Positions 21,990 through 39,132 of a stretch of DNA of 53,434 nucleotides are shown one piece after another; within the stretch, counting starts at the first letter, position 1, and each line of letters begins with the position of its first letter. A model generated the notes under the pieces. The model had not been told where the DNA came from, made no database searches, and saw only the letters and a program-made list of their open reading frames with translations. The DNA comes from a virus (lineage: Duplodnaviria; Heunggongvirae; Uroviricota; Caudoviricetes): IMG/VR virus record IMGVR_UViG_3300024265_000032. One strand, written 5' to 3'. The translations under genes were made by a program, and so were the position numbers.

Positions 21990-22184
21990 TTATGGATTGA
22001 ATGTCTTACCGATAGTTGGGTGTGTCATAATATCATCCTCAATCATGATCCTTAATCTGGCTTCATAATTATCTAGAGCCCTTTTACTGATACGAGTCAG
22101 TTTGTCTTCCATCCCCGGCCTCATGGCTGCAAGTTTGGCTCTTATAAACACTTTGATCTGACTTCTATTAAGAAGATTGGACAT
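21990..22184 (-). CDS. small basic hypothetical protein
   Basis: 64 aa, abuts the DUF2997 gene. Confidence 0.55.
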   Translation of the reverse strand: MSNLLNRSQIKVFIRAKLAAMRPGMEDKLTRISKRALDNYEARLRIMIEDDIMTHPTIGKTFNP

Positions 22185-22390
22185 TATATTCCTCCGCGTT
22201 GAGTGTTTCTTTCTCTGGTCACGCGACGTTGTCGATATTCTGGCTTGTCTGTGTGAGACACATCTGTTCCCAAAACTTCTTCTATCTCAGATAGAAATTT
22301 GGCACATTCTGGTCCCACAAACCCCTTACCTTCTATGGAACAATTACCATCGGGGTCGATATTAATAATGACTTCTTTTTGTCCTCTCAT
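22184..22390 (-). CDS. DUF2997-family protein
   Basis: I.IDPDG...IEGKGF.G..C......IEE.LG......KPEY pattern. Confidence 0.8.
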   Translation of the reverse strand: MRGQKEVIINIDPDGNCSIEGKGFVGPECAKFLSEIEEVLGTDVSHTDKPEYRQRRVTRERNTQRGGI

Positions 22391-22992
22391 CGTTTTTTCT
22401 CCGCTTCACAAAGTAGTTCTTCGAAGTACTCGGCTTTCTCTGAAGATGTTACACGACCCTTGAGTTTCTTTTTCCTCTTGTTTTCTAGGGCCAATTTATC
22501 ACTCATTAGGCACAACCAGTCAATTGCTGTTTTGAATCGCCCAAGTTCTGATTGTATTTGATCTAGGGCGTAGACATTCTTTAATCTGCCTCCTGATAAA
22601 TCGATGTCTGTGATTTCTGTATCGATACTTGTGTCAGACAACCATTGTGCTGTTATTTGTACACCTCGGTTACCCCAAATTCGAAATCGGTAGATTCTCT
22701 GTTTGAGTAGCCGACGTAGTTCTAAGACAGCAAGTGCCCTAGTCATATCTGATGATCTACCTACTGGAGCAAAACACCTATGGGACTCACAGTTGTGGTC
22801 TTCTTTTTTCTCACAAAGACGACATCTGTTCTCCAGTTTCGGGTTCTGGTGGAAATCACAATCGATCGTGGTTATCTTACCACTACAGACTGTAGTGATC
22901 GCTTGATGATTACCAGAGATATGCCATACGCGATGCCATTTACCTCTTGTTTTCAGAGACTGACGGTACCAACCCCTAAACATCTTCACCAT
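22387..22992 (-). CDS. hypothetical protein
   Basis: 201 aa, GGAGGT RBS. Confidence 0.55.
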   Translation of the reverse strand: MVKMFRGWYRQSLKTRGKWHRVWHISGNHQAITTVCSGKITTIDCDFHQNPKLENRCRLCEKKEDHNCESHRCFAPVGRSSDMTRALAVLELRRLLKQRIYRFRIWGNRGVQITAQWLSDTSIDTEITDIDLSGGRLKNVYALDQIQSELGRFKTAIDWLCLMSDKLALENKRKKKLKGRVTSSEKAEYFEELLCEAEKKR

Positions 22993-23004
22993 AAACCTCC
23001 TTCT

Positions 23005-23166
23005 CTACCTGATAACCTCGACACTCTTGACTGTCACATCCTGAACGTCTACCTCGTCGCAATCGTCTGGCCAAAATTCCATACCTTCAAGTTCCTCTAC
23101 TCCGTCGACATTGTCTGTCTCGGTCGTGGTTACTTCAAGTGTGATTTTATAGTGTCCTTTTTTCAT
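23005..23166 (-). CDS. small acidic protein (53 aa, absent from ORF track)
   Basis: GGAGGT RBS; MKKGHYKITLEVTT... Confidence 0.5.
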   Translation of the reverse strand: MKKGHYKITLEVTTTETDNVDGVEELEGMEFWPDDCDEVDVQDVTVKSVEVIR

Positions 23167-23410
23167 AGTGCGTACCTCCTGGCGAAAATGCCTCTATTTC
23201 CCACTCAATTGCCTTTTCCCTGTTGGGATTCGTGTGAAGGACTTTACCGTTCAAAGACAATACTTCCCACGTTTGCTCTGTCTCGTTGAATTCTACGTTC
23301 GACGCCTTGTGGATATCCGTCACTAGACCGATCGCGAACAGATTGACATCGTCTGTGTATAGACAATGGACATCTCCGTTCTGATCGATATCAAGTGTTA
23401 TCGTTTTCAT
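23147..23410 (-). CDS. conserved-looking small protein (I..DG.V..LY.D...L..G......AS.VE pattern)
   Basis: Start trimmed to 23410; recalled as a neighbour of DUF2997/DUF1257 genes (unverified). Confidence 0.55.
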   Translation of the reverse strand: MKTITLDIDQNGDVHCLYTDDVNLFAIGLVTDIHKASNVEFNETEQTWEVLSLNGKVLHTNPNREKAIEWEIEAFSPGGTHYEKRTL

Positions 23411-23411
23411 G

Positions 23412-23699
23412 TTAGTTCCTGGAACATCGACTTGCATCTTCTTTTATTTCCTTTCTTACTCTCGCGACAGCTTCTGCGATTGAACCTGCTGTTGGTTTTT
23501 TCTTTTGCTTGTCTTTTTCTATGAGATAGAGGACTCTGGCTTTGAAGCACCAATAGATTATTGATGCGACCCAAGAACAACCCCAGACACAGAATACGCC
23601 CAGTGCTATCTTCCAAGACAAGATAAGACACCCTAGACTGATCACAAAGCCGCCACCGAAAAGCCAGAATGCCAACATATACTGTCCAATCTTCTTCAT
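23412..23699 (-). CDS. two-TM membrane protein
   Basis: Two hydrophobic spans followed by a basic tail. Confidence 0.6.
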   Translation of the reverse strand: MKKIGQYMLAFWLFGGGFVISLGCLILSWKIALGVFCVWGCSWVASIIYWCFKARVLYLIEKDKQKKKPTAGSIAEAVARVRKEIKEDASRCSRN

Positions 23700-23701
23700 C
23701 T

Positions 23702-24712
23702 CTACGATCCCCTTGGTAAGGTTTCCTCTATCGACAAAGGACTAACGAGTACGTAGTCCACATTCTCACGTAAGTCAACAAAATTCATCGCACCACCCAT
23801 GGCGAGACCAGACTTGATTCCCATAACGTAGTCCTCAATGACCTTTTCTGTCCTGCCTTTGTCCTCCATCTCTATCTCGATACCTTCTGGTGCTATATCC
23901 GGCCTACCAGAAGCCGCACGGCTACTCATGCCTCGATAGAGACGTTTATCCCCAATCCTTGGGGTTGCTCGTGTACCAGCCAACATGTATCCGATCATAC
24001 ACGCATCAGCGCCAGCCCATATTGATTTTACCATGTCTCCACTGGTTCGCAATCCTCCGTCTGCAATAATTGAAACTCCATATTGGCCACTTACTACTTT
24101 GCATGTTTCTTGTATTGCAGAAAATTGTGGGACGCCGAATCCTGTGACTATTCGTGTGGTGCAAGCAGCGCCTGGGCCGATACCAACCTTGATCGCATCG
24201 ACTCCGTGTTGGGCGAATTTGATTGCTGCTTCGGGAGTGCAGACATTACCAGCCATGAGTGTGAACGGATATTTCTCTCTCACCCTAGATAGAGAATCGA
24301 TAGTTTCGTACATTTTTACGTGGTCGCCGTGTGCCACGTCGATACAGATGACGTTGCAGCCAATATCTGCCAGCATCTTTACTTTGTAAGGTATTTCTCC
24401 TTTCAACCCTATTGCGCATCCAACGTTTTTGGCACCCTGGTCACGAGCCCATTTGATTTCTTTCATTTGGGTGTCTAGTTCTGTACGGTCGTCCAGGTTG
24501 ATATGTCGGGTCAGGATACCTAGACCGCCCATCTTATCCATGACTACCAACATGTATTTTCCTGTAATAGAATCCATAGCCGCAGAGATGAGTGGTATTT
24601 TTAGCTCCACTGATCCTATCTTGGTTGCAGTACTTGGTGAAGTTCTAGACCCAAGGGTTGAGTAGTGCGGGACAAGCAAGATATCATTGAAACACAGTTT
24701 GCGCTCTTTCAC
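23702..24712 (-). CDS. IMP dehydrogenase / GMP reductase family (no CBS domains)
   Basis: D.LLVP, PL.SAAMD, IDVAHG, AGNV.T, KVGIGPGAACTTR..TG.GVPQ, IIADGG, YRGM.S. Confidence 0.92.
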   Translation of the reverse strand: MKERKLCFNDILLVPHYSTLGSRTSPSTATKIGSVELKIPLISAAMDSITGKYMLVVMDKMGGLGILTRHINLDDRTELDTQMKEIKWARDQGAKNVGCAIGLKGEIPYKVKMLADIGCNVICIDVAHGDHVKMYETIDSLSRVREKYPFTLMAGNVCTPEAAIKFAQHGVDAIKVGIGPGAACTTRIVTGFGVPQFSAIQETCKVVSGQYGVSIIADGGLRTSGDMVKSIWAGADACMIGYMLAGTRATPRIGDKRLYRGMSSRAASGRPDIAPEGIEIEMEDKGRTEKVIEDYVMGIKSGLAMGGAMNFVDLRENVDYVLVSPLSIEETLPRGS

Positions 24713-24721
24713 TGACTTCTC

Positions 24722-25102
24722 CTAGAGTTGTACCCGTCTAACAGACGAATGCCTTCTTTTTTCATTGGAATTTTTATTGATTGGCTTTGGCTTGGTTATG
24801 TAAACCCGACTTATGTTATCTACGGTATTTGAGAGTGTTTGGTTTTTACACATTTCGAAAAATTGTTCTGGACTTATCAGGTCTATGTCCATTTCTCGGG
24901 CCTTTTCTGCTTTTTGAGACTTGCTGTTCGCATCAGCTATCACCAAGATTGTTGTGGATTTTGTTATGGATGCTGTTATTGAGGCTCCAGCCTGTACTGC
25001 TATGGCCGTCATTTGGTCACGAGGTTTTGGAGACTTGCCAGTGAAACAGAATACTGCGCTTTTCAAATCTCCAGTATCTTCGTTTAGGAATTGAAGTGCC
25101 AT
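24722..25102 (-). CDS. stand-alone BRCT-domain protein (NAD-ligase C-terminal type)
   Basis: FCFTG...R......A...G......ITK.T..LV......S.K..KA....I..IS..QF. Confidence 0.85.
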   Translation of the reverse strand: MALQFLNEDTGDLKSAVFCFTGKSPKPRDQMTAIAVQAGASITASITKSTTILVIADANSKSQKAEKAREMDIDLISPEQFFEMCKNQTLSNTVDNISRVYITKPKPINKNSNEKRRHSSVRRVQL

Positions 25103-25103
25103 A

Positions 25104-25628
25104 TCAACGATACCCCGTTACTCTGATGGTTTGGTGTCCATTTGCTTCTCGAACTCTAGCGACAGTACGACCATAAGCCGCCATTTCTTTTTCGACAGCA
25201 TAAAACGCACAGCTTCCCTTGAGGTGACCTATCCATTGAGCGCCATATTTGTCAGAATCGAATTCTGAAATCAGAGCCTCATAAGTTCCGTCATCTTTCT
25301 TCACGAATCCAATATCATTAGCGCTATTGCCTACATATACTCGACGGATGATGATGTGGGCTACTTCTGCTCGTTGATCTCCGTGGTAACCGAATAAGTG
25401 CTGTGGGTCGCTGTGGACTTCTATCTGGGCTTCTGTCCAGTTCCCCGTCTCCATCAGAGCCTTGAATAGTGAGCTACCATCTTTGAACTGCGTCTTTACT
25501 GTGCAATAGCGTGAGATAACTTTCTCCTTCATTTTTGTATGGGTGTTGTCAATGATTTTCGCACTGACCATCCCAGAGTGACCAATCTGTGCCATAGGGC
25601 TTTCTGACCTATGTTTGTTTCCCACCAC
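25104..25628 (-). CDS. DUF1257 (Ycf35-like) protein; true start probably internal
   Basis: S.Y..VKT.F.D...L..AL...G...E....L.GY.G..R.....I........DIGF....DG.YE..I pattern. Confidence 0.75.
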   Translation of the reverse strand: MVGNKHRSESPMAQIGHSGMVSAKIIDNTHTKMKEKVISRYCTVKTQFKDGSSLFKALMETGNWTEAQIEVHSDPQHLFGYHGDQRAEVAHIIIRRVYVGNSANDIGFVKKDDGTYEALISEFDSDKYGAQWIGHLKGSCAFYAVEKEMAAYGRTVARVREANGHQTIRVTGYR

Positions 25629-25653
25629 CTCTTACTGTTTTTCTTTTTCCGCA

Positions 25654-25739
25654 GTCGCACAGACATAACCAACGAGCATTATCTACATACTCTATCACCG
25701 TAAGTCTGGTGAATTTTTGTCCAGTTATGTCTACGCGAC
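25654..25739 (-). ncRNA. candidate structured RNA (three-way junction) in the DUF1257 leader
   Basis: 16-bp closing stem whose two mismatches are G-U pairs only on the minus strand, enclosing two hairpins. Confidence 0.5.
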
Positions 25740-25748
25740 ACTTGGCCA

Positions 25749-25937
25749 CTAAGATTCCTCCTTTATTACAAACTGGAACCTCATTCCATTACCAGTGTCG
25801 AATTCGTCAGGTAAACCATTTTCCAATTGTTCCTGGAGATTTTGAATCAACTTACCTGCCTCTTTCTTGCTCATGAAGACTTTTGTCAACGGTGTGAAGA
25901 TGGTTTTTATGCCGTTCTGGAATATTTCTACTTTCAT
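25749..25937 (-). CDS. small hypothetical protein
   Basis: 62 aa, ATGA overlap with upstream gene. Confidence 0.55.
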   Translation of the reverse strand: MKVEIFQNGIKTIFTPLTKVFMSKKEAGKLIQNLQEQLENGLPDEFDTGNGMRFQFVIKEES

Positions 25938-26911
25938 CGACTACACGCTTTTAACCATCTTGCACGAGCGAATGCATTCATAGGACGAAAAGTCTGATAG
26001 ACATTTTCGTCGTCAAATTCATCGGTATCGATATCAGGATCGCCCATACATCCACCACTCGTAGCGAGGCAATCACAGTCGGTGCATATTTCCTGACATT
26101 GGGTACAGTAGCCATCTTCGTCCCAGCATCCACATGTGGTCGAGTCCATACCGCATCGAAGACAGTCGTCGTCGTCGAGATCATCATCTTCGTTGCAGAT
26201 ACAGCAACTGTTTTTCTCGCAACATGTCAAACAATTATCATAGATATCTTCGTCGTCGTCGTCGTCGTCGCAAACACAGTCAAAGCCATGACAATTCTCG
26301 CACATGTTTTCACATGTACAGTTTCCGTACAGATTGCAACACCCGTCACAATATGTATTTTCTGTGTCTTCACCTATGATTCTGACTGCCGCCAATTCTA
26401 CAATAAAACGAGGAACGTCTAGTTGCGGGAATTCTGATGGATGTCTTTTAAGAGCAGCCTGAGCACCACCTTCTATTCTGTTATCTAGGCATGTGAATAG
26501 TTTGTCGTCTAGTTCTATTTCGTTATGGTTAGTCCTGTATCCTAGACAATACGCCCTGCCACTGTGATAGCAACCTCCAAGTTTGACCTTAGACGTATCT
26601 ACTTCGATACTCAGACATAATGCGGCCATGTTTTCTTTTGTTGCTGGTACTACATCGTCAATGGTTAGTTTACAGAATTCGCCACCGAGGAAGAATAGTT
26701 CTTTTCCAGGTTTTGGAGCGGCGCTTACAACTCGACCTTTTGGAAGGATATAGTCGTACATGAATGTACCATTTGATTGATGTTCCCAATACACGAATTT
26801 TGTTGTTGACTTATCGCGGCCAGTGACAAAACAAACATGTTCTTCCCACTTTTTGCTCTTGTCGTCTGAATCAAATCTAGCGATAGCTAGTTCACAATTC
26901 TTTGCATTCAT
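25934..26911 (-). CDS. hypothetical protein with Cys/Asp-rich repeat C-terminus
   Basis: 325 aa; five C-x2-C...C-x-C units separated by poly-Asp. Confidence 0.65.
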   Translation of the reverse strand: MNAKNCELAIARFDSDDKSKKWEEHVCFVTGRDKSTTKFVYWEHQSNGTFMYDYILPKGRVVSAAPKPGKELFFLGGEFCKLTIDDVVPATKENMAALCLSIEVDTSKVKLGGCYHSGRAYCLGYRTNHNEIELDDKLFTCLDNRIEGGAQAALKRHPSEFPQLDVPRFIVELAAVRIIGEDTENTYCDGCCNLYGNCTCENMCENCHGFDCVCDDDDDDEDIYDNCLTCCEKNSCCICNEDDDLDDDDCLRCGMDSTTCGCWDEDGYCTQCQEICTDCDCLATSGGCMGDPDIDTDEFDDENVYQTFRPMNAFARARWLKACSR

Positions 26912-26923
26912 TTCATTTTTCTC

Positions 26924-27934
26924 CTAGAGAATTACTCTACGTTTCAGTTCGCCAATAAATTTCGATCCGCTTTCACCTTCTGCCGCAGCTTTGCTCCTGA
27001 TTGCCTCTAAGGCATCGGATACACTATTCTTAACCGTAGCAGACTCAAAGTCTTGTGGACGGATACCTTCGTCAAGGAATGTGTTTCTGAAGTCAGACAG
27101 CATCTTTTCGATATCTTCGTCCTCGAATATGTTCATGGAACGGAATCTGTCGACATACTTTCGGAAACATGAGATAGATTTTGGAGTCAACTGCTTGCTT
27201 TCTTCTTCGTCTCCGAATGGTTGTCCGTTGATTCTGGCAGTCATTAACTCACAGAATCGAACGGTTTCGTCTCTCATGGACGTTACGTAGTCTCCGACAA
27301 ATTCTCCAACGGCGTCTCTCATCTGAATACGTAGTTCTGTTTCTCTTTCTGTCTGCACCTTTTGCTTGGCAACCACCTCTTCGACGCTGGTTTCTTCTAT
27401 AGACCCAAGACCTGCTATCTGGAATGTGTACCAATCAAACTTGAAATGTTCTCTCAGGGCTTTCGGATTGCGGGGATAGTGACCTTTCAAACACTTATCC
27501 CAAAAATCTGGGTGTGCCGATTTGACAGCTTGTGTCAGGTCGTCGAACCGCAAGATGAAGCTGTCGACCCTCTTGAAGAATTCTTCTTTTAGTTCTTCTA
27601 TTTCCTGCTCTACGCTCAGCAACATGGTGGATGGAACAAAGTGTGCGTTTGCTATCCCGAACGGCACACTCCATCGTTCGAGCGCCTTACGAGCACGTTG
27701 TTCAATCTGGGTCAGAGCCTGAAGTTCCGTCTTTGGAACCATCAATTTCCTTCCTAGATTGACAATTTCTTTGGGGAGTGCATCCGGATCATATCCGACA
27801 CGGACAAGATCGGCGCGGGTCAACATTTTCCTTCCGCTCCACATTTTTATACTCAGGTTGACTAGACAACCAACGTCGAAAAGATTGATAGTGTCTTTAT
27901 CAACCTTTGGTTGGTCTTTGGTCACTGTAGCCAT
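26924..27934 (-). CDS. DUF3150-like protein
   Basis: LV.L.I..WSG.K.L...D......LP......LG.K...P...L..L..I..RAR..L...S.PF....FVP pattern. Confidence 0.65.
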   Translation of the reverse strand: MATVTKDQPKVDKDTINLFDVGCLVNLSIKMWSGRKMLTRADLVRVGYDPDALPKEIVNLGRKLMVPKTELQALTQIEQRARKALERWSVPFGIANAHFVPSTMLLSVEQEIEELKEEFFKRVDSFILRFDDLTQAVKSAHPDFWDKCLKGHYPRNPKALREHFKFDWYTFQIAGLGSIEETSVEEVVAKQKVQTERETELRIQMRDAVGEFVGDYVTSMRDETVRFCELMTARINGQPFGDEEESKQLTPKSISCFRKYVDRFRSMNIFEDEDIEKMLSDFRNTFLDEGIRPQDFESATVKNSVSDALEAIRSKAAAEGESGSKFIGELKRRVIL

Positions 27935-27952
27935 CTTTTTCTCCTTTTCAGC

Positions 27953-29509
27953 TTAGCTTAATACGACCTTCCGTTTGTTTGCTTGCGAATTCTCTTCCGA
28001 ACACGGATTGGCGGGTTTGGCATGTAGCTTGCACCATTCCCTGATAATCTCGATACGTTGTGCCTCTGTTTTGGATAGAGGAACAATCTCTGAAGTAGCT
28101 TGAGCTATGTGTTTTCCTGCTAACTCAACATTGTTCGCGAATGACATTTTGAGTGCGAGTTTGATGATTTGTTCGATATCTGCTCCCGTATATCCATCGG
28201 TAAGTTTGGCGACTTTGGTGATGTCGTAATTTTCGGGTTTTCTGTCCCTCCGAGATAGATGGATACGAAAGATTTCTTCTCGTTCATCAATTCTCGGAAC
28301 ATCTAACCCAAATATCTCATCGAATCTACCTTTGCGACAGAATTCGGGTGGCAAGGATTGTACTTGATTGGCGGTGGCGACAACGTAGACAGGAGAATTC
28401 CTATCGCTTAGCCATTTGAGGAACGTTCCGAATAACCGTTTAGACGATCCACCGTCATGATCTCCAGAGCCGCCGAAACCTTTTTCAACCTCGTCGAGTT
28501 GCAAGACGCAAGGAGCTATGCCTTCCATCATCTTAATGGCTTCTCTCATGTTCTTTTCTGACTCACCAACGAATTTGTTCATAAGATTGCCAACGTCCAT
28601 GGCAATAAGGGGAAGTCCTAGTTCGGATGCAATCGCTACAGACAGTAGTGTTTTTCCGCACCCAGGTATTCCGACCAATAAAATTCCTCGTGGGAATTCT
28701 ATTCCGTAATCTCTTGCTTTTTGTGTGAAGCACGGTTTGTCTAGAGAGATGTGTTGTTTTAGCGCGTCGTATCCTCCGACATTATCCATACCACCTTCTG
28801 GGGGTTCTATATATGTCAATAATTCTGATGCACGAATAATCCCAGCTTTTTCGTCGACTATCGTTTGAACCGCATCTAAGTTCAAGTCTTTATGTTTACG
28901 GAGAGCTAGTGCCACGCGGTCGGTTGTTTGTTGTGATGTCATACCCCTACAGGCATCTACCACTTGTGGAACGATATCTTCGTCGAGTTCGAAGTCTGAA
29001 CCATCGGATTTCTCAACACCATCACACACAAACTCAATGCGTTCTTTGATTTGATCGCCATCCGGTAAATCAAACTCAATTCGTGTTATATCGTGCAGTA
29101 GTGGCTTCGGTGTGTCAAAGTCTGGTCCGACGAAGACGATTGTTTGGTTAACTGACGATACGATTTTCCGTAGTTGATCCAACCAGCTTATCACAACATC
29201 ATAAGTTGGATAAGTTTCGTGTTTCAGGTATCCGCCAAAGTCGTTAAGGATAAGGATTATGTCGTTGGGGAATTTCATGATTGCTTCAAGGTGTTTTTCG
29301 ACCGATGCTTCAGGCTTCAAGTCGCAAACAGATACTTGATTTTTATCAACCCATCCCTGCGCAATTGTCCAGATGTAAATTTGTCGGTCTATGTTTTGCG
29401 CAACTTCTTCGATGGAAGCTATAGCCCTGTCTTTTTCGAATGTATCTACTCGTAGCAGTGCATGGCCAGAGCAGATGTAATTGCTAATTGCCTCATTGAA
29501 ATTTTGCAT
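27953..29509 (-). CDS. Ycf46-like AAA+ ATPase
   Basis: Start trimmed to ATG 29509 (AAGGAG RBS); GGYDALK, RGILLVGIPGCGKT, LDEVEKGFG, ATAN....LPPE..RKGRFDEIF, YTGADIEQ. Confidence 0.9.
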   Translation of the reverse strand: MQNFNEAISNYICSGHALLRVDTFEKDRAIASIEEVAQNIDRQIYIWTIAQGWVDKNQVSVCDLKPEASVEKHLEAIMKFPNDIILILNDFGGYLKHETYPTYDVVISWLDQLRKIVSSVNQTIVFVGPDFDTPKPLLHDITRIEFDLPDGDQIKERIEFVCDGVEKSDGSDFELDEDIVPQVVDACRGMTSQQTTDRVALALRKHKDLNLDAVQTIVDEKAGIIRASELLTYIEPPEGGMDNVGGYDALKQHISLDKPCFTQKARDYGIEFPRGILLVGIPGCGKTLLSVAIASELGLPLIAMDVGNLMNKFVGESEKNMREAIKMMEGIAPCVLQLDEVEKGFGGSGDHDGGSSKRLFGTFLKWLSDRNSPVYVVATANQVQSLPPEFCRKGRFDEIFGLDVPRIDEREEIFRIHLSRRDRKPENYDITKVAKLTDGYTGADIEQIIKLALKMSFANNVELAGKHIAQATSEIVPLSKTEAQRIEIIREWCKLHAKPANPCSEENSQANKRKVVLS

Positions 29510-29510
29510 C

Positions 29511-29780
29511 TTAACTCCTTTTTTTGTTGAGGGATTCCATTTTTTCGACGGTAGTAGCCAAGTTGTCCACAATGTGTCGAGGGACCATGACGAAAGCTGT
29601 AGGAATAGAAGGATTGTAATCTTCGACACCAAGCAAAGAATGAGCTATGGCAAGAAGCTTTTCTCGTTCTCTCCATATACAACTTGGGCATCTCCAACCT
29701 TCTCCATACATATAAAGTCCACATACAACTGTACAAGTATCGCACTTGATGTTTTTGACTTCATCAGGATGCATCTTCAT
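29511..29780 (-). CDS. Zn-finger hypothetical protein
   Basis: CDTC and CPSC pairs; AAGGA RBS. Confidence 0.55.
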   Translation of the reverse strand: MKMHPDEVKNIKCDTCTVVCGLYMYGEGWRCPSCIWREREKLLAIAHSLLGVEDYNPSIPTAFVMVPRHIVDNLATTVEKMESLNKKRS

Positions 29781-33638: not shown

Positions 33639-34338
33639 AATCTACTTCTTTAACGGTATATGCACCGTCTTGTATTACCAATGCTCTCAACTTTCCTCCT
33701 TCGTAGGCACCGCCGTCGATACAGAAGGCGTATCTACATGGGTGAACATTGTCTGTCCTAATGTGCCCACTGATGACGATGTAATCTCCTGTCAACGTTT
33801 TCCACCACGGGATACCATGTTCGTCGAAAAAGTCTTTGCCGTCCAGATACCTTGCGTACAGACAGGTTTCTATTCGTTGACTCTCTATCGGTTTGCGACC
33901 ATCAACCCCTGCGTGAACGACATAGACTGGCTTGCCTTTCCTGTCTGCTAGACGAATCATATGGGGCCAGTTGCCCATCCACTTAGACAATTCTGCTCTC
34001 GTTTCATCGCTGATGGCATCCGTTTGCTCTATGGTCATGTCTAGGCCATTGATTATCTTGACAGGGTTGCCCTTCCAATACCTTATGACCTTATTGTCGT
34101 GATTTCCCATGACAGAAAACGTGTTGGACGTGATATAGAACCACGCAAGCACTTCTCTGATTTTTGGGCCTCGGTCTACCAAGTCTCCGGTTGCGACCAC
34201 TATGTCCATGTCGTTGTAATCGCATTCTTTGAGCAGCGACATGAATTCATCAAAGCACCCGTGAATGTCTCCGACGACAATGACCTTCCTGTGCTTGCAT
34301 ATGCCGCTTATGTCCAGCGTGTGACTGTATCCTTTCAT
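33604..34338 (-). CDS. metallophosphoesterase (Ser/Thr phosphatase / Pnkp phosphatase-like)
   Basis: GDIHG, GDLVDRGP, GNHD, HAG, SGH, IDGG. Confidence 0.9.
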   Translation of the reverse strand: MKGYSHTLDISGICKHRKVIVVGDIHGCFDEFMSLLKECDYNDMDIVVATGDLVDRGPKIREVLAWFYITSNTFSVMGNHDNKVIRYWKGNPVKIINGLDMTIEQTDAISDETRAELSKWMGNWPHMIRLADRKGKPVYVVHAGVDGRKPIESQRIETCLYARYLDGKDFFDEHGIPWWKTLTGDYIVISGHIRTDNVHPCRYAFCIDGGAYEGGKLRALVIQDGAYTVKEVDCGQRKSNPEGE

Positions 34339-34344
34339 TTGGAT

Positions 34345-34641
34345 TCAATCCTCCATTTTGGTGTATTCGCCGATCATACTGCGTTCGCTAAGATAATCAT
34401 ACAGTTTTTCCATAGTGAAAGCAAACACATGACGACATTTTTGACATGCAAATCCAGCGTCTATACCCCCCCCATGGGCATGTCCAGATAACATTGGCAC
34501 GAGATCGGTGCTACTTGGGTCGAGAGGGTGTCTAACCATAGAATCTACTCGTGATGATACTATCACATGAGTCTTTATGTGAATGATTCTGTTGTGTCCA
34601 CATGTTTCACATTTGAAGTAGATGTTTGTTTCAAGGCTCAT
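34345..34641 (-). CDS. Zn-ribbon hypothetical protein
   Basis: CETC and CQKC pairs. Confidence 0.55.
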   Translation of the reverse strand: MSLETNIYFKCETCGHNRIIHIKTHVIVSSRVDSMVRHPLDPSSTDLVPMLSGHAHGGGIDAGFACQKCRHVFAFTMEKLYDYLSERSMIGEYTKMED

Positions 34642-34644
34642 GAG

Positions 34645-34965
34645 CTATTTCATCCATCTTTCGTCTTGGAGAAACTTTCGTAGACTTTCCTGGAACACCG
34701 CTACTAATTGTGGAAGCTTAGCAAGATCATAGCCGAACTCAACTGTTACCCAGTTCTGCATATTCAGACATACTTCTTTCACCCCTTCGAGTGCAAACAG
34801 GCCATCAAGCATGGGGTTTTCATCTCTATAGCCCTTTACTTGTCCTGCCCAGACATGACCTGAGTCATAATATGTCTTGACTTCCTTCTCGAATCTTGCG
34901 TCACCCGCCCACTCAGGAAGAGTAAAGGTCAGTTCGATTAGCTGAATTTCTCCCGACATGGTCAT
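34645..34965 (-). CDS. hypothetical protein, weak resemblance to the Nfu/NifU N-terminal domain
   Basis: P.L..LF..EGV..V......VTV motif. Confidence 0.4.
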   Translation of the reverse strand: MTMSGEIQLIELTFTLPEWAGDARFEKEVKTYYDSGHVWAGQVKGYRDENPMLDGLFALEGVKEVCLNMQNWVTVEFGYDLAKLPQLVAVFQESLRKFLQDERWMK

Positions 34966-35036: not shown

Positions 35037-35696
35037 TTACTTTGCCCCCATCTCATTTGTGAGCAGATTCAAATCGATATCTTTGTCGACCGGATACCCA
35101 CGAAGCCATTGGGCGAATTGTGACACCATGATTCCTGCTGCGACATTGGAACAGTAGATAGTCGACTTGGCCGTACATGGGCCTTGGTACGCTTCTGACG
35201 AGGGGAACAGTGTAGTGGAATAGTGTTCGCGAGATGCATCGTCGTGAACAGTCAGGACTCTGAGATACTCTGCACTCATCCTACCATCGACGAAAAAGTC
35301 TGCCCTTTCGATGATTGAATTGAAGATTTGCTTTCGAGTCTCTATTCCATCGACACAGCAGAAAAACGCACCGACTGTAAACTGCAATGACCTAAACTTT
35401 CGATTTGCAGTATACACCTCGATGTCTGGGTTGATAGCTCGACATACGTCGGCCACGGCTTCGACCTTGGGTGTACCAATGTCTGCCGGATAGAAGCCCT
35501 GTGGGGCAAGATTTTCCACCTCCACGGTGTCGAAATCTATGAGTTGAATACTCGGAGCGCCGATAGCTGCAAGCTGCAATGCTACTTGACGACCAATAGC
35601 GCCAACACCCACCACCGTAGCTGGCATCTCCAACAGCTTATCTGGCGGAACCAATTCCCTTTGTCTCACATCTCTGTCTGCAAGATCATTCGTCAT
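35037..35696 (-). CDS. ThiF/E1-like ubiquitin-like-protein activating enzyme
   Basis: R.RQ arginine-finger region, GVGAIG, DFD.V...NL..Q, K77, CCVD, DGR, candidate catalytic Cys174 (GPCT); lacks ThiF/MoeB CxxC Zn motifs and a rhodanese domain. Confidence 0.92.
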   Translation of the reverse strand: MTNDLADRDVRQRELVPPDKLLEMPATVVGVGAIGRQVALQLAAIGAPSIQLIDFDTVEVENLAPQGFYPADIGTPKVEAVADVCRAINPDIEVYTANRKFRSLQFTVGAFFCCVDGIETRKQIFNSIIERADFFVDGRMSAEYLRVLTVHDDASREHYSTTLFPSSEAYQGPCTAKSTIYCSNVAAGIMVSQFAQWLRGYPVDKDIDLNLLTNEMGAK

Positions 35697-35919
35697 TGTT
35701 ATCCCCTTTCTCGTCTGTCACCTCTACTTCAACGTAATCCCCGAAGTTCCTTTTTGCTATTAGGAAGTTATCGTCTGGCCATTGGCGGACAATGATCATA
35801 TCCCCATCTTTGGCGAACTGACCTGCTTCCACCATTTCCCCGTCTTCTGCTGGACGAATTTTCAATAAGTCTGTCTTTTGCACCCACTTCTTCGCCATTA
35901 TGCTGTCGCCTTTCTCCAC
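35686..35919 (-). CDS. small hypothetical protein within the Ubl operon
   Basis: Overlaps both the JAB and ThiF genes. Confidence 0.6.
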   Translation of the reverse strand: MEKGDSIMAKKWVQKTDLLKIRPAEDGEMVEAGQFAKDGDMIIVRQWPDDNFLIAKRNFGDYVEVEVTDEKGDNNDE

Positions 35920-36878
35920 TCAGGGCGACAATACGCATTCTTTTTTGCCCAATACCTGATCTTTTTGTCAAGTCCTTCTTTGTCTGGAGAAGCACAAGGC
36001 TGGAAGTCATCTTCACTTTCTAGTTGCCATGTGTCGTTGTCCGGATTGTAATAGTATGAACAATCTTCTCCCTTGTTGGCGATAAAGCATACCACATCAC
36101 CATCTAAATCCCAGTAACAATCCATCTCGTCGATCATCTCGTTGAACTCTAGCTTCTGCTTTTCTTCTGGCGTGACAGAAATCCATGCAGAATCGTAGTC
36201 ATCCCACCACTGAGAGCTATTGCCCGACCCAGTTTGACGGGTAGCTCCCAATTCTTCTTCGAAAATGTCGAGAAGAGGGGCATCCGGAATAAGACGCTTT
36301 CTTTTTCCTTCTGCGCCAGTCATATGGAAGCTCGTCTTCTTGGAGACCTTTGCTTTGTACTCATTTTCCCATTCTGTAGGATTTGAGCCGTTGAACGGAA
36401 CTCCATATTCTATTACCACATCTAATAGACTAATAGTGCCCGGCCCTGTGTTCATCTTCAGGCGACAGTACGCGCTGCCATCTTGGCCAATGATCAACAT
36501 GATCGCCCAGTTAGGATGAGAAAACGCTTTTTCGAAGTTTTTCTCATCGACGAAAGATGGGTCTGTAGAATTCCCTGGATGGGTGTGTGCAAGAATGTTC
36601 ATACATTGCCATGGTGCGAGACCTTCGTCCATCATGCGCTCTACGTATTCTGCGCTATCGTCTGAATCAAGATCGAATGTGACTATGGTACATTCTTGTT
36701 TGATCAAGACGAAGTCTGTGATCAACAGGGGGTCAGATGTTTCTGTGACACAATATCCAGCGACTTCTGTGTTGCCCTTGTCCCTCATCCAGATAAGTTT
36801 TGCCCAGGCATATGGCGTCAACTTCAGTTGCTTGCCAAACGTAAGTCGCGGTTTGCAAAATTCCTGTTCTTTTCCCAC
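35898..36878 (-). CDS. JAB/JAMM (MPN+) metallopeptidase with acidic C-terminal extension
   Basis: E38, H98-x-H100-x7-S108-x2-D111: exact JAMM spacing. Confidence 0.9.
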   Translation of the reverse strand: MGKEQEFCKPRLTFGKQLKLTPYAWAKLIWMRDKGNTEVAGYCVTETSDPLLITDFVLIKQECTIVTFDLDSDDSAEYVERMMDEGLAPWQCMNILAHTHPGNSTDPSFVDEKNFEKAFSHPNWAIMLIIGQDGSAYCRLKMNTGPGTISLLDVVIEYGVPFNGSNPTEWENEYKAKVSKKTSFHMTGAEGKRKRLIPDAPLLDIFEEELGATRQTGSGNSSQWWDDYDSAWISVTPEEKQKLEFNEMIDEMDCYWDLDGDVVCFIANKGEDCSYYYNPDNDTWQLESEDDFQPCASPDKEGLDKKIRYWAKKNAYCRPEWRKATA

Positions 36879-36894
36879 ATCGTTACCTTTCGTT

Positions 36895-38232
36895 TTAGTT
36901 GTTTACTTCTGCCAGCAAACAGTTGTGCTCTTCTTTGCATGACGAACACATAGACACACCACAATGATCACACGAGTTATCGATACAGTTTGAACACATT
37001 TCTTTGTCACATGATGGACAGTGCTTCAGGCACAAACTACAAGCATGTTCTCCACATTCTTCACATATTGTGAGACAATTATCACAATGTGAGTCTCCAC
37101 AATGGCAACATTCCCCGAGGCACTCATGACACACTTCGTCGTCACACTCACAAGACGTAGAGCATTCTTGACAAGAACGATTACTGCATTGAGCACATTC
37201 TTTTGTGCACTTTTTGCAATAGGAGTTTTGGCAACAACTACAAGATACGGTACATGATTTACACATTGACTCACCACAGCCGTTACATCCATTCATACAC
37301 TCATCACAATGCCACTCATCGCAACTGCTGCATTCGTCGATGGTGCCACAATCTCGACATCGACTGACTCCACACCCAGAACAATAGTAGATGATTTCGT
37401 CTGAATACCATTCTTCACATATGTCGCAAAGTGATTGACCATCTCTGTCTGGATCGTACCAGTCGTTAAGTGGCTCATAAGGAGAATCCTCGTTGTATGT
37501 GCGGACGATTGCTTCGACTATCCGAAAGTAATCTTCAAGCCTTCCTTGTCTTAGGGCGAGTTGCATTATGTCGCCGCCATCACCCTCGCAGAGTTGACCA
37601 TCTTTTACATGAGGATGACAGTATCCACTATTTCCTTCTATTGGACAGACAGCCTCTACGAGAAGCCCATAAATCAGACGATCGTCGTCCTGAACCCCTT
37701 TGCCCATAGGATCGTCAAGGTTGACACGCAAGATGAAATCGCCAAGGTCTACTGCTTCAGTGCCGTCGTCGAGAGACACATTGCCAATGTTTACGGATAA
37801 AACCCCCTCTCGGTATGTGACTTTATCCCATGCATCATTGATAATAGTCAGTTCCTGAATTGCTTCCTTGACTCCGAGTGGTTCACAAACTTCGTCGCTC
37901 ACCATAGATTCCATTAAGGCTGTGCATTTGTCCAGGGCGACTACCATGGTGTTTCTTAGGTCTGGAATCATTTCGTTGGCTATGTCGGCATACACCTTTG
38001 GGTTCGGAGTACCAATATGCCTTGCGGTCATTGCCCCTACTTCGACCTGAACACGAGGTGTCATCCCCGCCATGAAACGCTTGGTCCATTTCCCAAAAAT
38101 CCTTGACCTTACTTCGAGCCATTCTGTGTAGTTTGCTATCCTTTCTCGATATTCAGATATTGGCTCAAGAGCATTTTTGTGCATCCAATTGCGGTAATGA
38201 TTGGCGGCACGAACTACAAGTTTATCCTTCAT
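36895..38232 (-). CDS. E2-like (UBC-fold) conjugating enzyme fused to a tandem Cys/Zn repeat array
   Basis: HPHV-x2-G-x2-C215 mirrors the UBC HPN..G.IC active-site motif; ten C-x2-C-x4-C-x2-C units at the C-terminus; lies between Ubl and JAB. Confidence 0.75.
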   Translation of the reverse strand: MKDKLVVRAANHYRNWMHKNALEPISEYRERIANYTEWLEVRSRIFGKWTKRFMAGMTPRVQVEVGAMTARHIGTPNPKVYADIANEMIPDLRNTMVVALDKCTALMESMVSDEVCEPLGVKEAIQELTIINDAWDKVTYREGVLSVNIGNVSLDDGTEAVDLGDFILRVNLDDPMGKGVQDDDRLIYGLLVEAVCPIEGNSGYCHPHVKDGQLCEGDGGDIMQLALRQGRLEDYFRIVEAIVRTYNEDSPYEPLNDWYDPDRDGQSLCDICEEWYSDEIIYYCSGCGVSRCRDCGTIDECSSCDEWHCDECMNGCNGCGESMCKSCTVSCSCCQNSYCKKCTKECAQCSNRSCQECSTSCECDDEVCHECLGECCHCGDSHCDNCLTICEECGEHACSLCLKHCPSCDKEMCSNCIDNSCDHCGVSMCSSCKEEHNCLLAEVNN

Positions 38233-38314
38233 GGTTGATTCCTTGTGTCAGTCCACCCATTTCGGCTTGTTTGGTTGCGAATTTTTCTTCTGTCATCGGA
38301 AGAACCTCTCGCGG

Positions 38315-38346
38315 AAAAAAGGAGGGGGACATTTCTGCCCCCCTCC
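38315..38346 (-). terminator. Rho-independent terminator after the Ubl gene
   Basis: GGAGGGGGGCA-GAAA-TGTCCCCCTCC (11 bp, one G-U, GNRA loop) followed by TTTTTT. Confidence 0.85.
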
Positions 38347-38366
38347 TAGCACGTAGCACCACCTGA

Positions 38367-38600
38367 TTAGGCTCCGTCAACCTTCACAGGTGCAAGACTT
38401 ACACGATCACCTTCGCAGAGAACGTAATCCCGGTGTGCCTCGACCGAGGTTCCATTCGCTCGTATACGAATCGTGAACTCATCCGGGTCACCATCGAAGG
38501 CAATCTCCAGGAACTTCTCCAGGGTCGTACCTTCTACGACTGGAGTCTTGACTGGTAGCCCAGCGCCCCCATTATGAACCAAAGTCACGTTAATCATCAT
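38367..38600 (-). CDS. ubiquitin-like (beta-grasp, ThiS/MoaD-like) protein ending ...PVKVDG-A
   Basis: 77 aa from ATG 38600 (GGGAG RBS); G.TL..FL, IR.NG, L.EGD.VSL.P pattern; penultimate Gly. Confidence 0.85.
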   Translation of the reverse strand: MMINVTLVHNGGAGLPVKTPVVEGTTLEKFLEIAFDGDPDEFTIRIRANGTSVEAHRDYVLCEGDRVSLAPVKVDGA

Positions 38601-38658: not shown

Positions 38659-39132
38659 CTATCCTATTGTTCCCGCATGAAGTTGTGCATGATGTCTTTT
38701 GCACAACCATCTAACATCCAACGGTTTTGAATAATCTTCGTGGTGGGCGTCAGTTTCTTCTTTGTCGCAAATTTCACACGGTTGGCGTATCAACCTACCA
38801 GTATGTATGGCCCATTCAACCTTGTCGTGTGCTGATGCTTTTTCCTTGTTGTTTACTCTATAGCAGTAAAAACACCGCCAACCCTGTTTGCGTCCGTATT
38901 CAAAGTGTTGTTTTCTGTCACGTCCACACTTCGGGCAAATGACATAATTTTTTTCTTGTTTGATGATAGGTGGAAGATTATTCTTTGCTCGTTCTTTGTT
39001 TTCTGCTCGTCTAGACCTTCGTAGTCTATTTTCACACGAACGGCATCTCCATCCGCGACCCCTGTTGTGTTTATCCCTTCGTTGTTTACGATTTCCTCCG
39101 CATTTGGGACACACTGATTTGTTCTTAGACAT
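38659..39132 (-). CDS. HNH-type (His-Cys) putative homing endonuclease with N-terminal Zn fingers
   Basis: A...V..AI..G.L.RQPCEIC.....DAHHEDYSKPLDVRWLC..HH...H. Confidence 0.8.
   Translation of the reverse strand: MSKNKSVCPKCGGNRKQRRDKHNRGRGWRCRSCENRLRRSRRAENKERAKNNLPPIIKQEKNYVICPKCGRDRKQHFEYGRKQGWRCFYCYRVNNKEKASAHDKVEWAIHTGRLIRQPCEICDKEETDAHHEDYSKPLDVRWLCKRHHAQLHAGTIG

What the first reader, a model, noticed from the sequence alone, without database searches (positions are those of the whole stretch)
35037..38600. Complete phage-encoded ubiquitin-like conjugation cascade (Ubl - E2 - JAB - small ORF - E1)
Seen: five co-oriented, tightly packed genes. They are a 77-aa beta-grasp protein ending DG-A; a protein with HPHV-x2-G-x2-C215 resembling the UBC/E2 active site; a JAB peptidase with exact JAMM spacing (E38, H98, H100, S108, D111); a 77-aa unknown; and a ThiF/E1 with an intact adenylation site and Cys174 but no Zn CxxC or rhodanese. 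Established: Ubl+E1+E2+JAB is the architecture of bacterial protein-conjugation systems (Bil/Bub antiphage ubiquitination, CBASS Cap2/Cap3), whereas ThiS/MoaD sulfur relays do not use an E2. Inference: here the cascade sits among early/middle genes of a phage. The virus may therefore ubiquitylate host or viral proteins itself, for example to disable defences, compete with host Bil/CBASS conjugation or mark substrates for degradation. I recall similar clusters in Planctomycetota chromosomes annotated as molybdopterin converting factor/ThiF (unverified). I know of no characterised function for a phage-borne version, but novelty needs a literature check.
Basis: partly seen in the sequence, partly recalled or inferred. 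Interest (0 to 1): 0.95.

Follow-up and report, generated by a model that had tools for sequence, protein, structure and literature searches.

The report
Phage ubiquitin-like tagging gene cassette
An uncultured phage of about 165 kb carries genes for a small ubiquitin-like tag, a minimal activating enzyme, an unusual transfer enzyme with a long zinc-finger-like tail and a trimming protease; the same undescribed kit is common in Planctomycetota genomes, so it looks like a new branch of bacterial ubiquitin-type tagging whose targets are unknown.

Summary
On the minus strand lie a 76-77 aa beta-grasp protein ending KVDG-A, a 445-aa protein with invariant HPH206-208 and Cys215, a JAMM peptidase with every motif residue invariant, a small ORF, and a 219-aa ThiF-type E1 with invariant Cys174.

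The record is a phage (large terminase, portal). The order Ubl-E2-like-JAB-E1 is kept in 12 of the 13 viral or metagenomic loci examined, and in 33 of 71 genome loci, mostly Planctomycetota.

The E2 call rests on structure-level evidence only. The AF2 topology fits. Foldseek gives E 4.6e-6 to an AlphaFold DB cluster named "UBC core domain-containing". No sequence profile links it to known E2s.

- The E2-like protein has an N-terminal helical hairpin and 20 CxxC motifs at its C-terminus.
- A strong terminator follows the Ubl gene.
- An AAA+/DUF3150/DUF1257/DUF2997 module recurs nearby in distant relatives.

The small ORF occurs only in the closest relatives.

The closest known system is Bil (BilABCD). 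The gene content and Ubl tail match, but the HMMs and the E1 and E2 architectures do not. The biological role is unknown. This scan has flagged similar phage cassettes many times on other DNA. I class it as a new variant of a known kind, of moderate to high interest.

The parts
38367..38600 (-). Ubl precursor, 76-77 aa, beta-grasp fold. It ends K-V-D-G followed by one removable Ala.
   Evidence: ORF. AF2 pLDDT 82 with beta-beta-alpha-beta-beta-beta order. Foldseek probability 1.0 to Urm1, SUMO, ubiquitin, MoaD, SAMP1 and BilA. The 60 homologues found are 69-96% identical. Gly75 is nearly invariant and is followed by 1-5 variable residues, or by an 83-aa extension in L009.
38320..38347 (-). Intrinsic-terminator-like hairpin (12-bp stem, 8 GC pairs) plus a T-run, between the Ubl gene and the E2-like gene.
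   Evidence: and the sequence. Similar hairpins (-22 to -26 kcal/mol) with T-runs follow the Ubl gene in L003, L009, L010 and L020.
37900..38232 (-). E2-like protein, N-terminal long helical hairpin (aa 1-111).
   Evidence: AF2 model: helices 3-57 and 78-111. Fold searches match only generic helical hairpins.
37447..37899 (-). E2-like core (aa 112-262) with an alpha, four-strand, loop, alpha, alpha order. HPH206-208 lies at 37609-37617 and Cys215 at 37588-37590.
   Evidence: H206, H208, C215, G217, D234, Y246 and W258 are invariant across 38 distant members. Foldseek against AFDB clusters gives E 4.6e-6 to a 'UBC core domain-containing protein'. Atlas TM is 0.50 to an FHA+UQ_con cluster. The family has 2106 representatives and no Pfam model.
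36895..37446 (-). Cys-rich tail of the E2-like protein (aa 263-445). It has 20 CxxC motifs spaced 7-8 residues apart, giving about ten C-x2-C-x4-C-x2-C units. It is presumably a zinc-binding array.
   Evidence: 25% Cys. The Cys columns are conserved. Atlas structural neighbours carry FYVE, LIM or zinc-ribbon labels. AFDB relatives are auto-named RING-type or 4Fe-4S-type. Metal binding was not tested.
35898..36878 (-). JAMM/MPN+ metallopeptidase (JAB) with a C-terminal extension of about 150 aa.
   Evidence: E38, H98, H100, S108 and D111 are invariant in 14 sequences. Pfam Prok-JAB scores E 1e-3, below its cut-off. PADLOC JAB models score 6e-5. The NCBIfam Cap3 hit is weak.
35686..35898 (-). 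Small ORF of 70 aa (from ATG 35898), overlapping both neighbouring genes. It is restricted to the closest relatives and its function is unknown.
   Evidence: It is 62% identical to the ORF at the same position in L051. An ORF of 68 aa sits at the same position in another close contig. The other 13 loci have no homologue. No family hit.
35037..35696 (-). Minimal ThiF-type E1 of 219 aa, consisting of an adenylation domain only. Invariant Cys174 lies at 35175-35177.
   Evidence: Pfam ThiF E 3e-25. PDB sequence hits to MoeB, UBA7, UBA5, NAE1 and BubCD. G30xG32xxG35, D116, R139 and C174-T175 are invariant in 13 sequences. It is 42-69% identical across the loci.
22184..29632 (-). Possibly linked module, not shown to act with the cassette: AAA+ ATPase (27953-29632), DUF3150 (26924-27934), DUF1257 (25104-25628) and DUF2997 (22184-22390).
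   Evidence: Pfam hits. The same module lies beside or within 3-9 kb of the cassette in a distant 169-kb phage contig (L020), an ENA contig, clade relatives and 12 of 71 genome loci, mostly Planctomycetota.

Best explanation
This is a working-looking ubiquitin-like protein-conjugation cassette. It belongs to an undescribed family related in layout to the bacterial Bil systems. It is carried as a conserved early or middle gene block by a clade of phages of about 165 kb and is also resident in many Planctomycetota genomes.

**Proposed mechanism**

Shown by sequence or fold: all parts are present and every catalytic residue is conserved.

Inferred steps:
1. The Ubl is made as a precursor. A terminator that follows the gene in about half of the phage relatives checked may let it be made in excess over the enzymes.
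2. The JAMM peptidase removes the variable residues after the conserved Gly, and probably also reverses conjugates.
3. The minimal E1, presumably a dimer like other ThiF/MoeB enzymes, adenylates that Gly. It may hold it as a thioester on invariant Cys174.
4. The Ubl passes to invariant Cys215, which sits 9 residues after the HPH motif of the E2-like core.
5. The Cys-rich tail fused to the E2-like core acts as a built-in adaptor or E3-like part that selects targets.

The targets and the benefit to the phage are unknown. Given the recurrent AAA+/DUF3150/DUF1257/DUF2997 neighbours, the conjugates may be read by that ATPase.
For: - **Gene set and motifs:**
- **Ubl:** beta-grasp fold. A conserved Gly is followed by a variable tail or a long extension. 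Chambers et al. report the same feature for type II BilA (PMC10557695, read).
- **JAB:** the JAMM residues are invariant.
- **E1:** ThiF at 3e-25, with the adenylation residues and Cys174 invariant.
- **E2-like core:** UBC-like order of elements at pLDDT 81. Foldseek gives E 4.6e-6 to a cluster named UBC core domain-containing, and a weaker hit to an RWD-named cluster. Atlas TM is 0.50 to a UQ_con cluster. The only hhalign match places HPH-Cys on the HPN-Cys of a UQ_con family. H206, H208 and C215 are invariant over a family of 2106 representatives.
- **Order kept:** in 12 of 13 viral or metagenome loci and in 33 genome loci.
- **Phage identity:**
- **Tight coupling:** the genes from E2-like to E1 have overlapping or 16-nt junctions.
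Against: - No sequence profile ties the 445-aa protein to any E2 family. Pfam, PADLOC, NCBIfam and PHROGs give nothing, a PDB profile search gives no hit at E<=10, and hhalign probability is 2-4%.
- Searches against solved structures returned only helical-hairpin matches, so the UBC fold is not confirmed against an experimental E2.
- The E1 lacks the CYS domain, the zinc site and any E2-recruiting domain found in BilD and eukaryotic E1s.
- JAB plus ThiF plus a small beta-grasp protein also occurs in sulfur-carrier pathways.
- There is no expression or biochemical evidence.
Confidence: 0.65

Rival explanations
1. The biochemistry is the same, but the cassette is cargo defence. It would be a Bil-like anti-phage or superinfection-exclusion system that Planctomycetota use against viruses, and that this phage clade carries to exclude competing phages rather than to run its own infection.
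For: All characterised bacterial Ubl-E1-E2-JAB systems (Bil, type II CBASS, and by context Bub) act in anti-phage immunity (PMC10557695, PMC11601603, PMC11601596). The cassette is common and sometimes multi-copy in Planctomycetota genomes. The AAA+ neighbour gives partial hits to the IetA defence ATPase models.
Against: PADLOC Bil models do not recognise the Ubl, E2-like or JAB proteins. All three relatives at 97-100% completeness that were checked keep the cassette in the same block. The one relative without it ends at that point. It also occurs in distant large phages (L019, L020). That pattern looks more like a core phage function than a sporadic accessory gene.
Confidence: 0.2
2. It is a sulfur-carrier relay and not protein conjugation. 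The beta-grasp protein would be trimmed by the JAB, as CysO is by Mec and QbsE by QbsD. The ThiF enzyme would adenylate it and it would be converted to a thiocarboxylate. The Cys-rich 445-aa protein would serve as a sulfur or metal-cluster acceptor, for example for thiolating nucleotides or cofactors.
For: The best NCBIfam hits of the E1 are ThiF and MoeB models, all far below their cut-offs. A distant Ubl homologue gives a weak Pfam ThiS hit (E 9e-4). The tail is 25% Cys, and one AFDB relative is auto-named 4Fe-4S ferredoxin-type. From established knowledge, JAB trimming of sulfur carriers is known.
Against: The ORFs scanned on either side of the cassette (33604-34965 and 38659-39132) gave no rhodanese, cysteine desulfurase or thiamine/molybdopterin gene. 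The Ubl ends in a single Gly after Asp or Glu, not in Gly-Gly. The Cys spacing C-x2-C-x4-C-x2-C does not follow the ferredoxin pattern. The HPH-x6-Cys loop in an E2-like topology is invariant.
Confidence: 0.1
3. The 445-aa protein is not a transfer enzyme but a zinc-binding scaffold or substrate. The E1 would then attach the Ubl directly, or only adenylate it. The HPH/Cys site would bind metal or have another activity.
For: There is no significant sequence link to E2s. His-x-His plus Cys could be a metal site. Some bacterial E1s work without a canonical thioester relay (Bub uses oxyesters, PMC11601596).
Against: There is structure-level similarity to clusters named UBC core and RWD. The gene always sits between the Ubl and JAB genes.
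Confidence: 0.05

Closest known systems
Bil (BilABCD, bacterial ISG15-like) systems, especially type II (Chambers et al., PMC10557695; Hör et al., bioRxiv 10.1101/2023.09.04.556158)
   Same: It has four genes in the same order: Ubl, E2, JAB deubiquitinase, E1. The Ubl has a single beta-grasp domain. A conserved Gly is followed by a short non-conserved tail; here it is G-A, as in the Ensifer aridi BilA (Gly97-Ala98).
   Different: The PADLOC Bil models miss the Ubl, E2-like and JAB proteins and touch the E1 only weakly (E 5.8e-5). The E1 here is 219 aa with a single adenylation domain. BilD has inactive and active adenylation domains, a CYS domain and a zinc site. The E2-like protein is 445 aa with a helical hairpin and about ten Cys4 units. 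It is encoded by a phage, and its role is unknown.
Bub (bacterial ubiquitination-like) operons, types I and II (Ye et al., PMC11601596)
   Same: It has a ThiF-type E1 (the PDB sequence hit to Citrobacter BubCD is E 3e-4), an E2-like partner, a Ubl and a peptidase.
   Different: Bub proteins are fusions (Ubl-E2, JAB-E1 or E2-E1). They include a DUF6527 serine protease and work through oxyester intermediates without a catalytic Cys. Here the genes are separate, no DUF6527 was seen, and the Cys residues are invariant.
Type II CBASS Cap2/Cap3
   Same: It has E1 and E2 chemistry plus a JAB isopeptidase. PADLOC E1-E2 models hit the E1 (E 6e-13), and PADLOC JAB and NCBIfam Cap3 models hit the JAB weakly.
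   Different: Cap2 is an E2-E1 fusion, and the conjugated protein is the CD-NTase, not a free Ubl. No CD-NTase or effector is present here.
ThiS/MoaD-ThiF/MoeB sulfur-carrier pairs, and their JAB-trimmed versions (CysO/Mec, QbsE/QbsD; from established knowledge)
   Same: A beta-grasp carrier is adenylated by a small ThiF-type enzyme, and a JAB trims the C-terminus.
   Different: The ORFs scanned on either side gave no sulfur-transfer partner. The Ubl has no Gly-Gly end. An extra conserved E2-like gene is present.
Eukaryote-like Ub/E1/E2/RING operon of Caldiarchaeum subterraneum (PMC5654768, PMC3082918; seen only as titles and abstracts)
   Same: It is a complete cascade with a metal-binding E3-type element and an Rpn11-like JAB.
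   Different: There the E2 and the RING are separate proteins that standard profiles recognise. Here the Cys array is fused to the E2-like core and is a regular repeat, not a cross-brace RING.

Membership tests
Bil (BilABCD) | Operon of Ubl, E2, JAB peptidase and E1 | tested here: met
   Searches show the same content and order.
Bil (BilABCD) | Proteins recognised by the BilA-D profile models (PADLOC) | tested here: not met
   One search gives only a partial BilD hit (E 5.8e-5, 19.9 bits). The Ubl, E2-like and JAB proteins hit no Bil model.
Bil (BilABCD) | E1 with inactive and active adenylation domains, an inserted CYS domain and a Cys4 zinc site (PMC10557695) | tested here: not met
   The E1 is 219 aa with one ThiF domain and no CxxC pair.
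Bil (BilABCD) | Ubl with a conserved Gly followed by a short non-conserved tail | tested here: met
Bil (BilABCD) | Protects the host against phage by tagging a virion protein | not testable with these tools
   This needs infection assays.
UBC/E2 superfamily | Match to UQ_con or Prok-E2 profiles | tested here: not met
   Searches show no Pfam family in 38 members. The PDB profile search gives no hit. hhalign against a UQ_con family gives 2-4% probability.
UBC/E2 superfamily | UBC fold: helix, four-stranded antiparallel sheet, active-site loop, two or more helices | tested here: inconclusive
   The AF2 order of elements fits. Foldseek gives E 4.6e-6 to a cluster named UBC core, Atlas TM is 0.50 to a UQ_con cluster and the ITT1 RWD domain scores E 0.29. 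Searches of solved structures were filled by the helical hairpin.
UBC/E2 superfamily | HPN-type motif about 8-10 residues before the catalytic Cys | tested here: met
   HPH206-208 and C215 are invariant.
UBC/E2 superfamily | Forms a Ubl thioester | not testable with these tools
   This needs biochemistry.
ThiF/MoeB/E1 superfamily | PF00899 above its cut-off, a nucleotide-binding GxGxxG and a conserved Asp and Arg in the adenylation site | tested here: met
   (89 bits against a cut-off of 28).
JAMM/MPN+ peptidases | The motif E...HxHx7Sx2D | tested here: met
   It is invariant in 14 sequences.
JAMM/MPN+ peptidases | Pfam Prok-JAB or JAB above the gathering score | tested here: not met
   One search gives 19.4 bits against a cut-off of 25. 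The homologue in L016 reaches 26.1 bits.
Ubiquitin-like beta-grasp modifiers | Beta-grasp fold with a flexible C-terminal tail ending in Gly | tested here: met
ThiS/MoaD sulfur carriers | C-terminal Gly-Gly and a linked sulfur-transfer or cofactor-synthesis gene | tested here: not met
   The Ubl ends (D/E)-G plus a tail. The ORFs scanned on either side (33604-34965 and 38659-39132) gave no such gene.
RING-type E3 | Cross-brace C3HC4-type binuclear zinc site that binds an E2 | tested here: inconclusive
   The tail is a regular C-x2-C-x4-C-x2-C repeat. AFDB relatives carry an automatic RING-type name. The tail was not folded here.

The most novel reading that the evidence does not exclude
The cassette and the recurrent AAA+ (Ycf46-like)/DUF3150/DUF1257/DUF2997 module form one pathway. 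An E2 with a built-in zinc-array adaptor tags chosen host or phage proteins with a highly conserved Ubl. The AAA+ ATPase then recognises and unfolds or extracts the tagged proteins. That would be a ubiquitin-plus-unfoldase system, analogous to ubiquitin with Cdc48 or the proteasome, run by phages and Planctomycetota elements.
Probability: 0.15. Interest if true: 0.9.

Novelty: new variant of a known kind. Interest (0 to 1): 0.6.

Why it matters
Ubiquitin-type conjugation in bacteria is so far characterised only as host anti-phage immunity (Bil, type II CBASS, probably Bub).

Here a distinct family has a very small E1, an E2-like enzyme fused to a long Cys4 repeat, and a Ubl that is as constrained as ubiquitin. 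It is a conserved gene block of large phages and is abundant in Planctomycetota, and no model in Pfam, PADLOC, NCBIfam or PHROGs recognises its Ubl or E2-like protein.

If active, it would show three things:
- Viruses of bacteria run their own tagging cascade.
- An E1 of only 219 aa, with no CYS domain and no zinc site, can serve such a cascade.
- An E2 can carry a built-in adaptor.

The link to an AAA+ ATPase makes the question of what the tag is for directly testable.

Tried and rejected
- **Complex prediction** of E1 + Ubl + E2-like(1-268): the verdict was 'no answer', score 0.00. It counts neither way.
- **Solved-structure searches with the 1-268 model:** Foldseek PDB, VIA-align wide and the VIA second look were all filled by generic helical hairpins. 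No E2 was listed and the core was barely tested.
- **Swiss-Prot Foldseek**: prefoldin-type helices, plus one weak RWD hit (ITT1).
- **Sequence and profile searches for the E2-like protein:** Pfam, PADLOC, PHROGs, NCBIfam, phmmer against PDB and a profile against PDB found nothing. hhalign against a cyanobacterial UQ_con family aligned only the active-site motif, at 2-4% probability.
- **Pfam, PADLOC, PHROGs and NCBIfam for the Ubl and the small ORF:** no Pfam, PHROGs or NCBIfam hit for either. PADLOC gave only one weak chance-level hit for the small ORF (Csx19, E 0.014). The Atlas gave no usable hit for the small ORF.
- **blastn and tblastn** of the cassette and of the E2-like protein against GenBank phages and PLSDB plasmids: no match.
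- **Cultured-phage check:** the E1 alone finds crAss-like and Xanthomonas or Erwinia jumbo phages, where it is annotated 'thiamine biosynthesis protein'. My E2-like, JAB and Ubl profiles did not hit the neighbouring genes in the two records checked, a Xanthomonas jumbo phage and the uncultured Bajarodcaudo virus 1.
A degenerate DNA pattern was used instead.
- **A 96%-complete relative (G001)** has no cassette, but its AAA gene lies 3.8 kb from the contig end. The cassette would fall off the end, so this is not informative.
- **Sequencing runs:** one DNA holder (subsurface metagenome) and no RNA holder listed.
- **Papers:** the two comparative-genomics papers of Burroughs et al. (PMC2732565, PMC5938088) are not held. 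I could not check whether they already describe this family.
- **Literature searches** found no paper on a phage-borne cascade.

Full report
**What is there**

All genes of the finding lie on the minus strand.

In the direction of transcription they are:
- The Ubl (38600-38367).
- A 134-nt gap.
- The 445-aa E2-like protein (38232-36895).
- The JAB peptidase (36878-35898).
- A small ORF (35919 or 35898 to 35686).
- The E1 (35696-35037).

The junctions from E2-like to E1 are 16 nt or overlapping, so those four genes are probably translated from one message. The gap after the Ubl gene holds a 12-bp GC-rich hairpin followed by a T-run (38347-38320). Hairpins of -22 to -26 kcal/mol with T-runs follow the Ubl gene in four other phage loci, one of them only distantly related. 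This suggests the tag is made in excess over its enzymes. That reading is inference.

**Is it a phage?**

The window is bases 40-53473 of an IMG/VR virus record of 119,625 bases, estimated 72% complete. The rest of the record encodes a large terminase and a portal protein. The window itself holds a UvsX-like recombinase, ribonucleotide reductase, exonucleases, an integrase, a NinI-like phosphatase and an HNH endonuclease. Relatives are contigs of 160-181 kb, and one has direct terminal repeats. The single DNA run that holds the stretch is a subsurface metagenome.

**The parts**

*Ubl.*
- The 60 homologues found are 69-96% identical.
- Among the phage-clade loci the Ubl is 51-83% identical to the window's, against 33-42% for the E2-like protein.
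- The AF2 model (pLDDT 82) has the beta-grasp order of elements.
- It matches Urm1, SUMO, ubiquitin, MoaD, SAMP1 and a bacterial Ubl bound to its deubiquitinase, at Foldseek probability 1.0 and TM 0.5-0.67.
- The sequence ends P-x-K-(V/I)-(D/E)-G, followed by 1-5 variable residues. In L009 an 83-aa extension follows instead.
- That pattern is what a tag looks like when its Gly must be exposed by a peptidase. Chambers et al. describe it for type II BilA, whose example also ends Gly-Ala (PMC10557695).

*JAB.*
- E38, H98, H100, S108 and D111 fit E...HxHx7Sx2D.
- They are invariant in 14 sequences.
- The Pfam and PADLOC scores are weak.

*E1.*
- It is 219 aa and hits ThiF at E 3e-25.
- Its nearest solved relatives by sequence are MoeB, UBA7, UBA5, the NEDD8 E1, ThiF and BubCD.
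- GxGxxG, D116, R139 and C174-T175 are invariant in 13 sequences.
- It has no CxxC zinc site, no rhodanese domain, no CYS domain and no ubiquitin-fold domain.

*E2-like protein.*
- The N-terminal 268 residues fold at pLDDT 81. There is a long helical hairpin (aa 3-111), then a helix, four strands, a loop carrying HPH206-208 and Cys215, and two helices. That is the order of elements in the UBC fold.
- Searches against solved structures were swamped by the hairpin.
- Against AlphaFold DB clusters, the best hits are family members from Planctomycetota-type entries. Some are auto-named RING-type or 4Fe-4S-type, presumably because of the Cys tail. Next comes a cluster named 'UBC core domain-containing protein' at E 4.6e-6, and further down an RWD-named cluster.
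- The ESM Atlas model of residues 112-268 gives TM 0.77 to a Planctomycetota cluster of 2546 members, and TM 0.50 to a cluster with FHA and UQ_con domains.
- At the sequence level nothing is significant. Pfam, PADLOC, NCBIfam, PHROGs and PDB profile searches found nothing. hhalign against a cyanobacterial UQ_con family aligned only HPH...C with HPN...C, at 2-4% probability.
- A profile of the core finds 2106 representatives at E<=1e-3 among 1.8 billion. In 38 sampled members no Pfam family is present. H206, H208, C215, G217, D234, Y246 and W258 are invariant.
- I read this as a probable, very divergent member of the E2/RWD fold class (about 75%). It is not proven.

*Cys tail.*
- Residues 269-432 hold 20 CxxC motifs spaced 7-8 residues apart. 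That makes about ten C-x2-C-x4-C-x2-C units, and the tail is 25% Cys.
- The Cys columns are conserved, but the number of units varies. Phage forms are about 410-460 aa and bacterial forms about 330-400 aa.
- Atlas structural neighbours carry FYVE, LIM and zinc-ribbon labels.
- A zinc-binding adaptor fused to the E2 is the simplest reading. It was not tested.

*Small ORF.*
- It is 62% identical to an ORF at the same position in a close relative. An ORF of similar size sits there in another.
- The other 13 loci have no counterpart.
- It belongs to a sub-lineage, not to the system.

**Distribution**

- Eleven IMG/VR loci were found with the E2-like profile, and three more metagenome or MAG loci were added. 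Twelve of the 13 examined keep E2-like, JAB and E1 in that order (the thirteenth ends inside the cluster), and 12 have a detectable Ubl.
- Relatives found through the terminase include one near-complete contig without the cassette. That contig ends just where the cassette should be.
The 80 loci listed are overwhelmingly Planctomycetota, including Gimesia, Zavarzinella formosa, Blastopirellula, Pirellulales and Phycisphaerae, and some genomes have several copies.
- Of the 80 loci, 71 carry the core and 33 have all four genes within the 8-kb window, in the same order.
- Among GenBank phages only the E1 is detectably related. It occurs in crAss-like phages and in Xanthomonas and Erwinia jumbo phages, annotated as 'thiamine biosynthesis protein'. 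BFVD lists a weak structural look-alike of the E2-like protein in the crAss-like phage cr128_1.

**A recurrent neighbour**

The window encodes an AAA+ ATPase, DUF3150, DUF1257 and DUF2997 on the same strand, 5-13 kb downstream.

The same set turns up elsewhere:
- Next to the cassette on an ENA contig.
- 3-9 kb downstream in a distant 169-kb phage contig whose E2-like protein is only 28% identical.
- 2.3-6.5 kb from the E1 in clade relatives.
- In 12 of 71 genome loci, mostly Planctomycetota. In a Gimesia MAG the order is AAA, DUF3150, Ubl, E2-like, JAB, E1.

This is suggestive of a functional link. No background rate was computed.

**Most likely mechanism, and rivals**

The best-supported reading (0.65) is a true Ubl conjugation cascade:
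1. The JAB trims the precursor.
2. The mini-E1 adenylates the Gly and perhaps holds it on Cys174.
3. The Ubl passes to Cys215 of the E2-like core.
4. The Cys array selects targets.

Only the presence and conservation of the parts is shown. Every transfer step is inference.

The rivals are:
- The same chemistry used as cargo defence (0.2).
- A sulfur-carrier relay (0.1).
- A non-catalytic E2-like protein (0.05).

**Comparison with known systems, and novelty**

Bil is the closest known system in layout and in the Ubl tail. However, the Bil profiles do not recognise these proteins, and the E1 and E2 architectures differ. The Bub and CBASS systems differ in their fusions and partners. I therefore do not file it as a Bil member. 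I call it a new variant of the known kind 'bacterial ubiquitin-like conjugation system'.

No paper in the held library describes a phage-borne cascade. The two most relevant comparative-genomics papers could not be read.

This scan has noted such phage cassettes many times on other DNA: 174 notes in at least 164 genomes. One of them, e1-3113803, appears to describe the same E2-like family. The complex-prediction job gave no verdict.

Noticed in passing
window 22184-29632 (-): An AAA+ ATPase (559 aa, phrog_8638, partial IetA-model hits), DUF3150, DUF1257 and DUF2997 lie 5-13 kb downstream. They recur beside the Ubl cassette in distant phages and in Planctomycetota loci. No background rate was computed.
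   Followed up: partly
window 38320-38347 (-): A strong terminator-like hairpin directly follows the Ubl gene. Similar hairpins follow the Ubl gene in L003, L009, L010 and L020.
   Followed up: partly
L009:5043-5519 (+): In this relative the Ubl ORF continues for 83 residues after the conserved Gly. It resembles a ubiquitin-fusion precursor that would need cleavage.
   Followed up: no
window 24722-25102 (-): A small BRCT-domain protein (Pfam E 4e-11) also hits the PADLOC candidate defence model PDC-S48. It sits inside the AAA/DUF block.
   Followed up: no
window 23702-24712 (-): An IMPDH/GMP-reductase family enzyme (Pfam E 5e-80) lies among the early genes.
   Followed up: no
window 16028-16909 (-): A tyrosine integrase-like gene (phrog_1, E 1e-39) is present in a phage of about 165 kb that otherwise looks lytic.
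   Followed up: no
window 38659-39132 (-): An HNH endonuclease with two zinc-ribbon-like CxxC pairs (phrog_2340, E 1e-20) lies immediately upstream of the Ubl gene. The 13 related loci have no counterpart, so it is probably a mobile insertion.
   Followed up: partly
L017 (Crinalium epipsammum plasmid NC_019754.1, 38825-42302): A separate cyanobacterial plasmid cluster holds ThiF (389 aa), two small ORFs, a UQ_con-type E2 and a Mov34/JAB protein next to a conjugative-transfer gene. It was used here only as an E2 reference.
   Followed up: no
L052, L065, L069 (one Planctomycetaceae MAG): Three separate contigs of the same MAG each carry the HPH-CEGDG pattern, and L052 and L065 hold the full cassette. 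This suggests multi-copy mobile elements.
   Followed up: no
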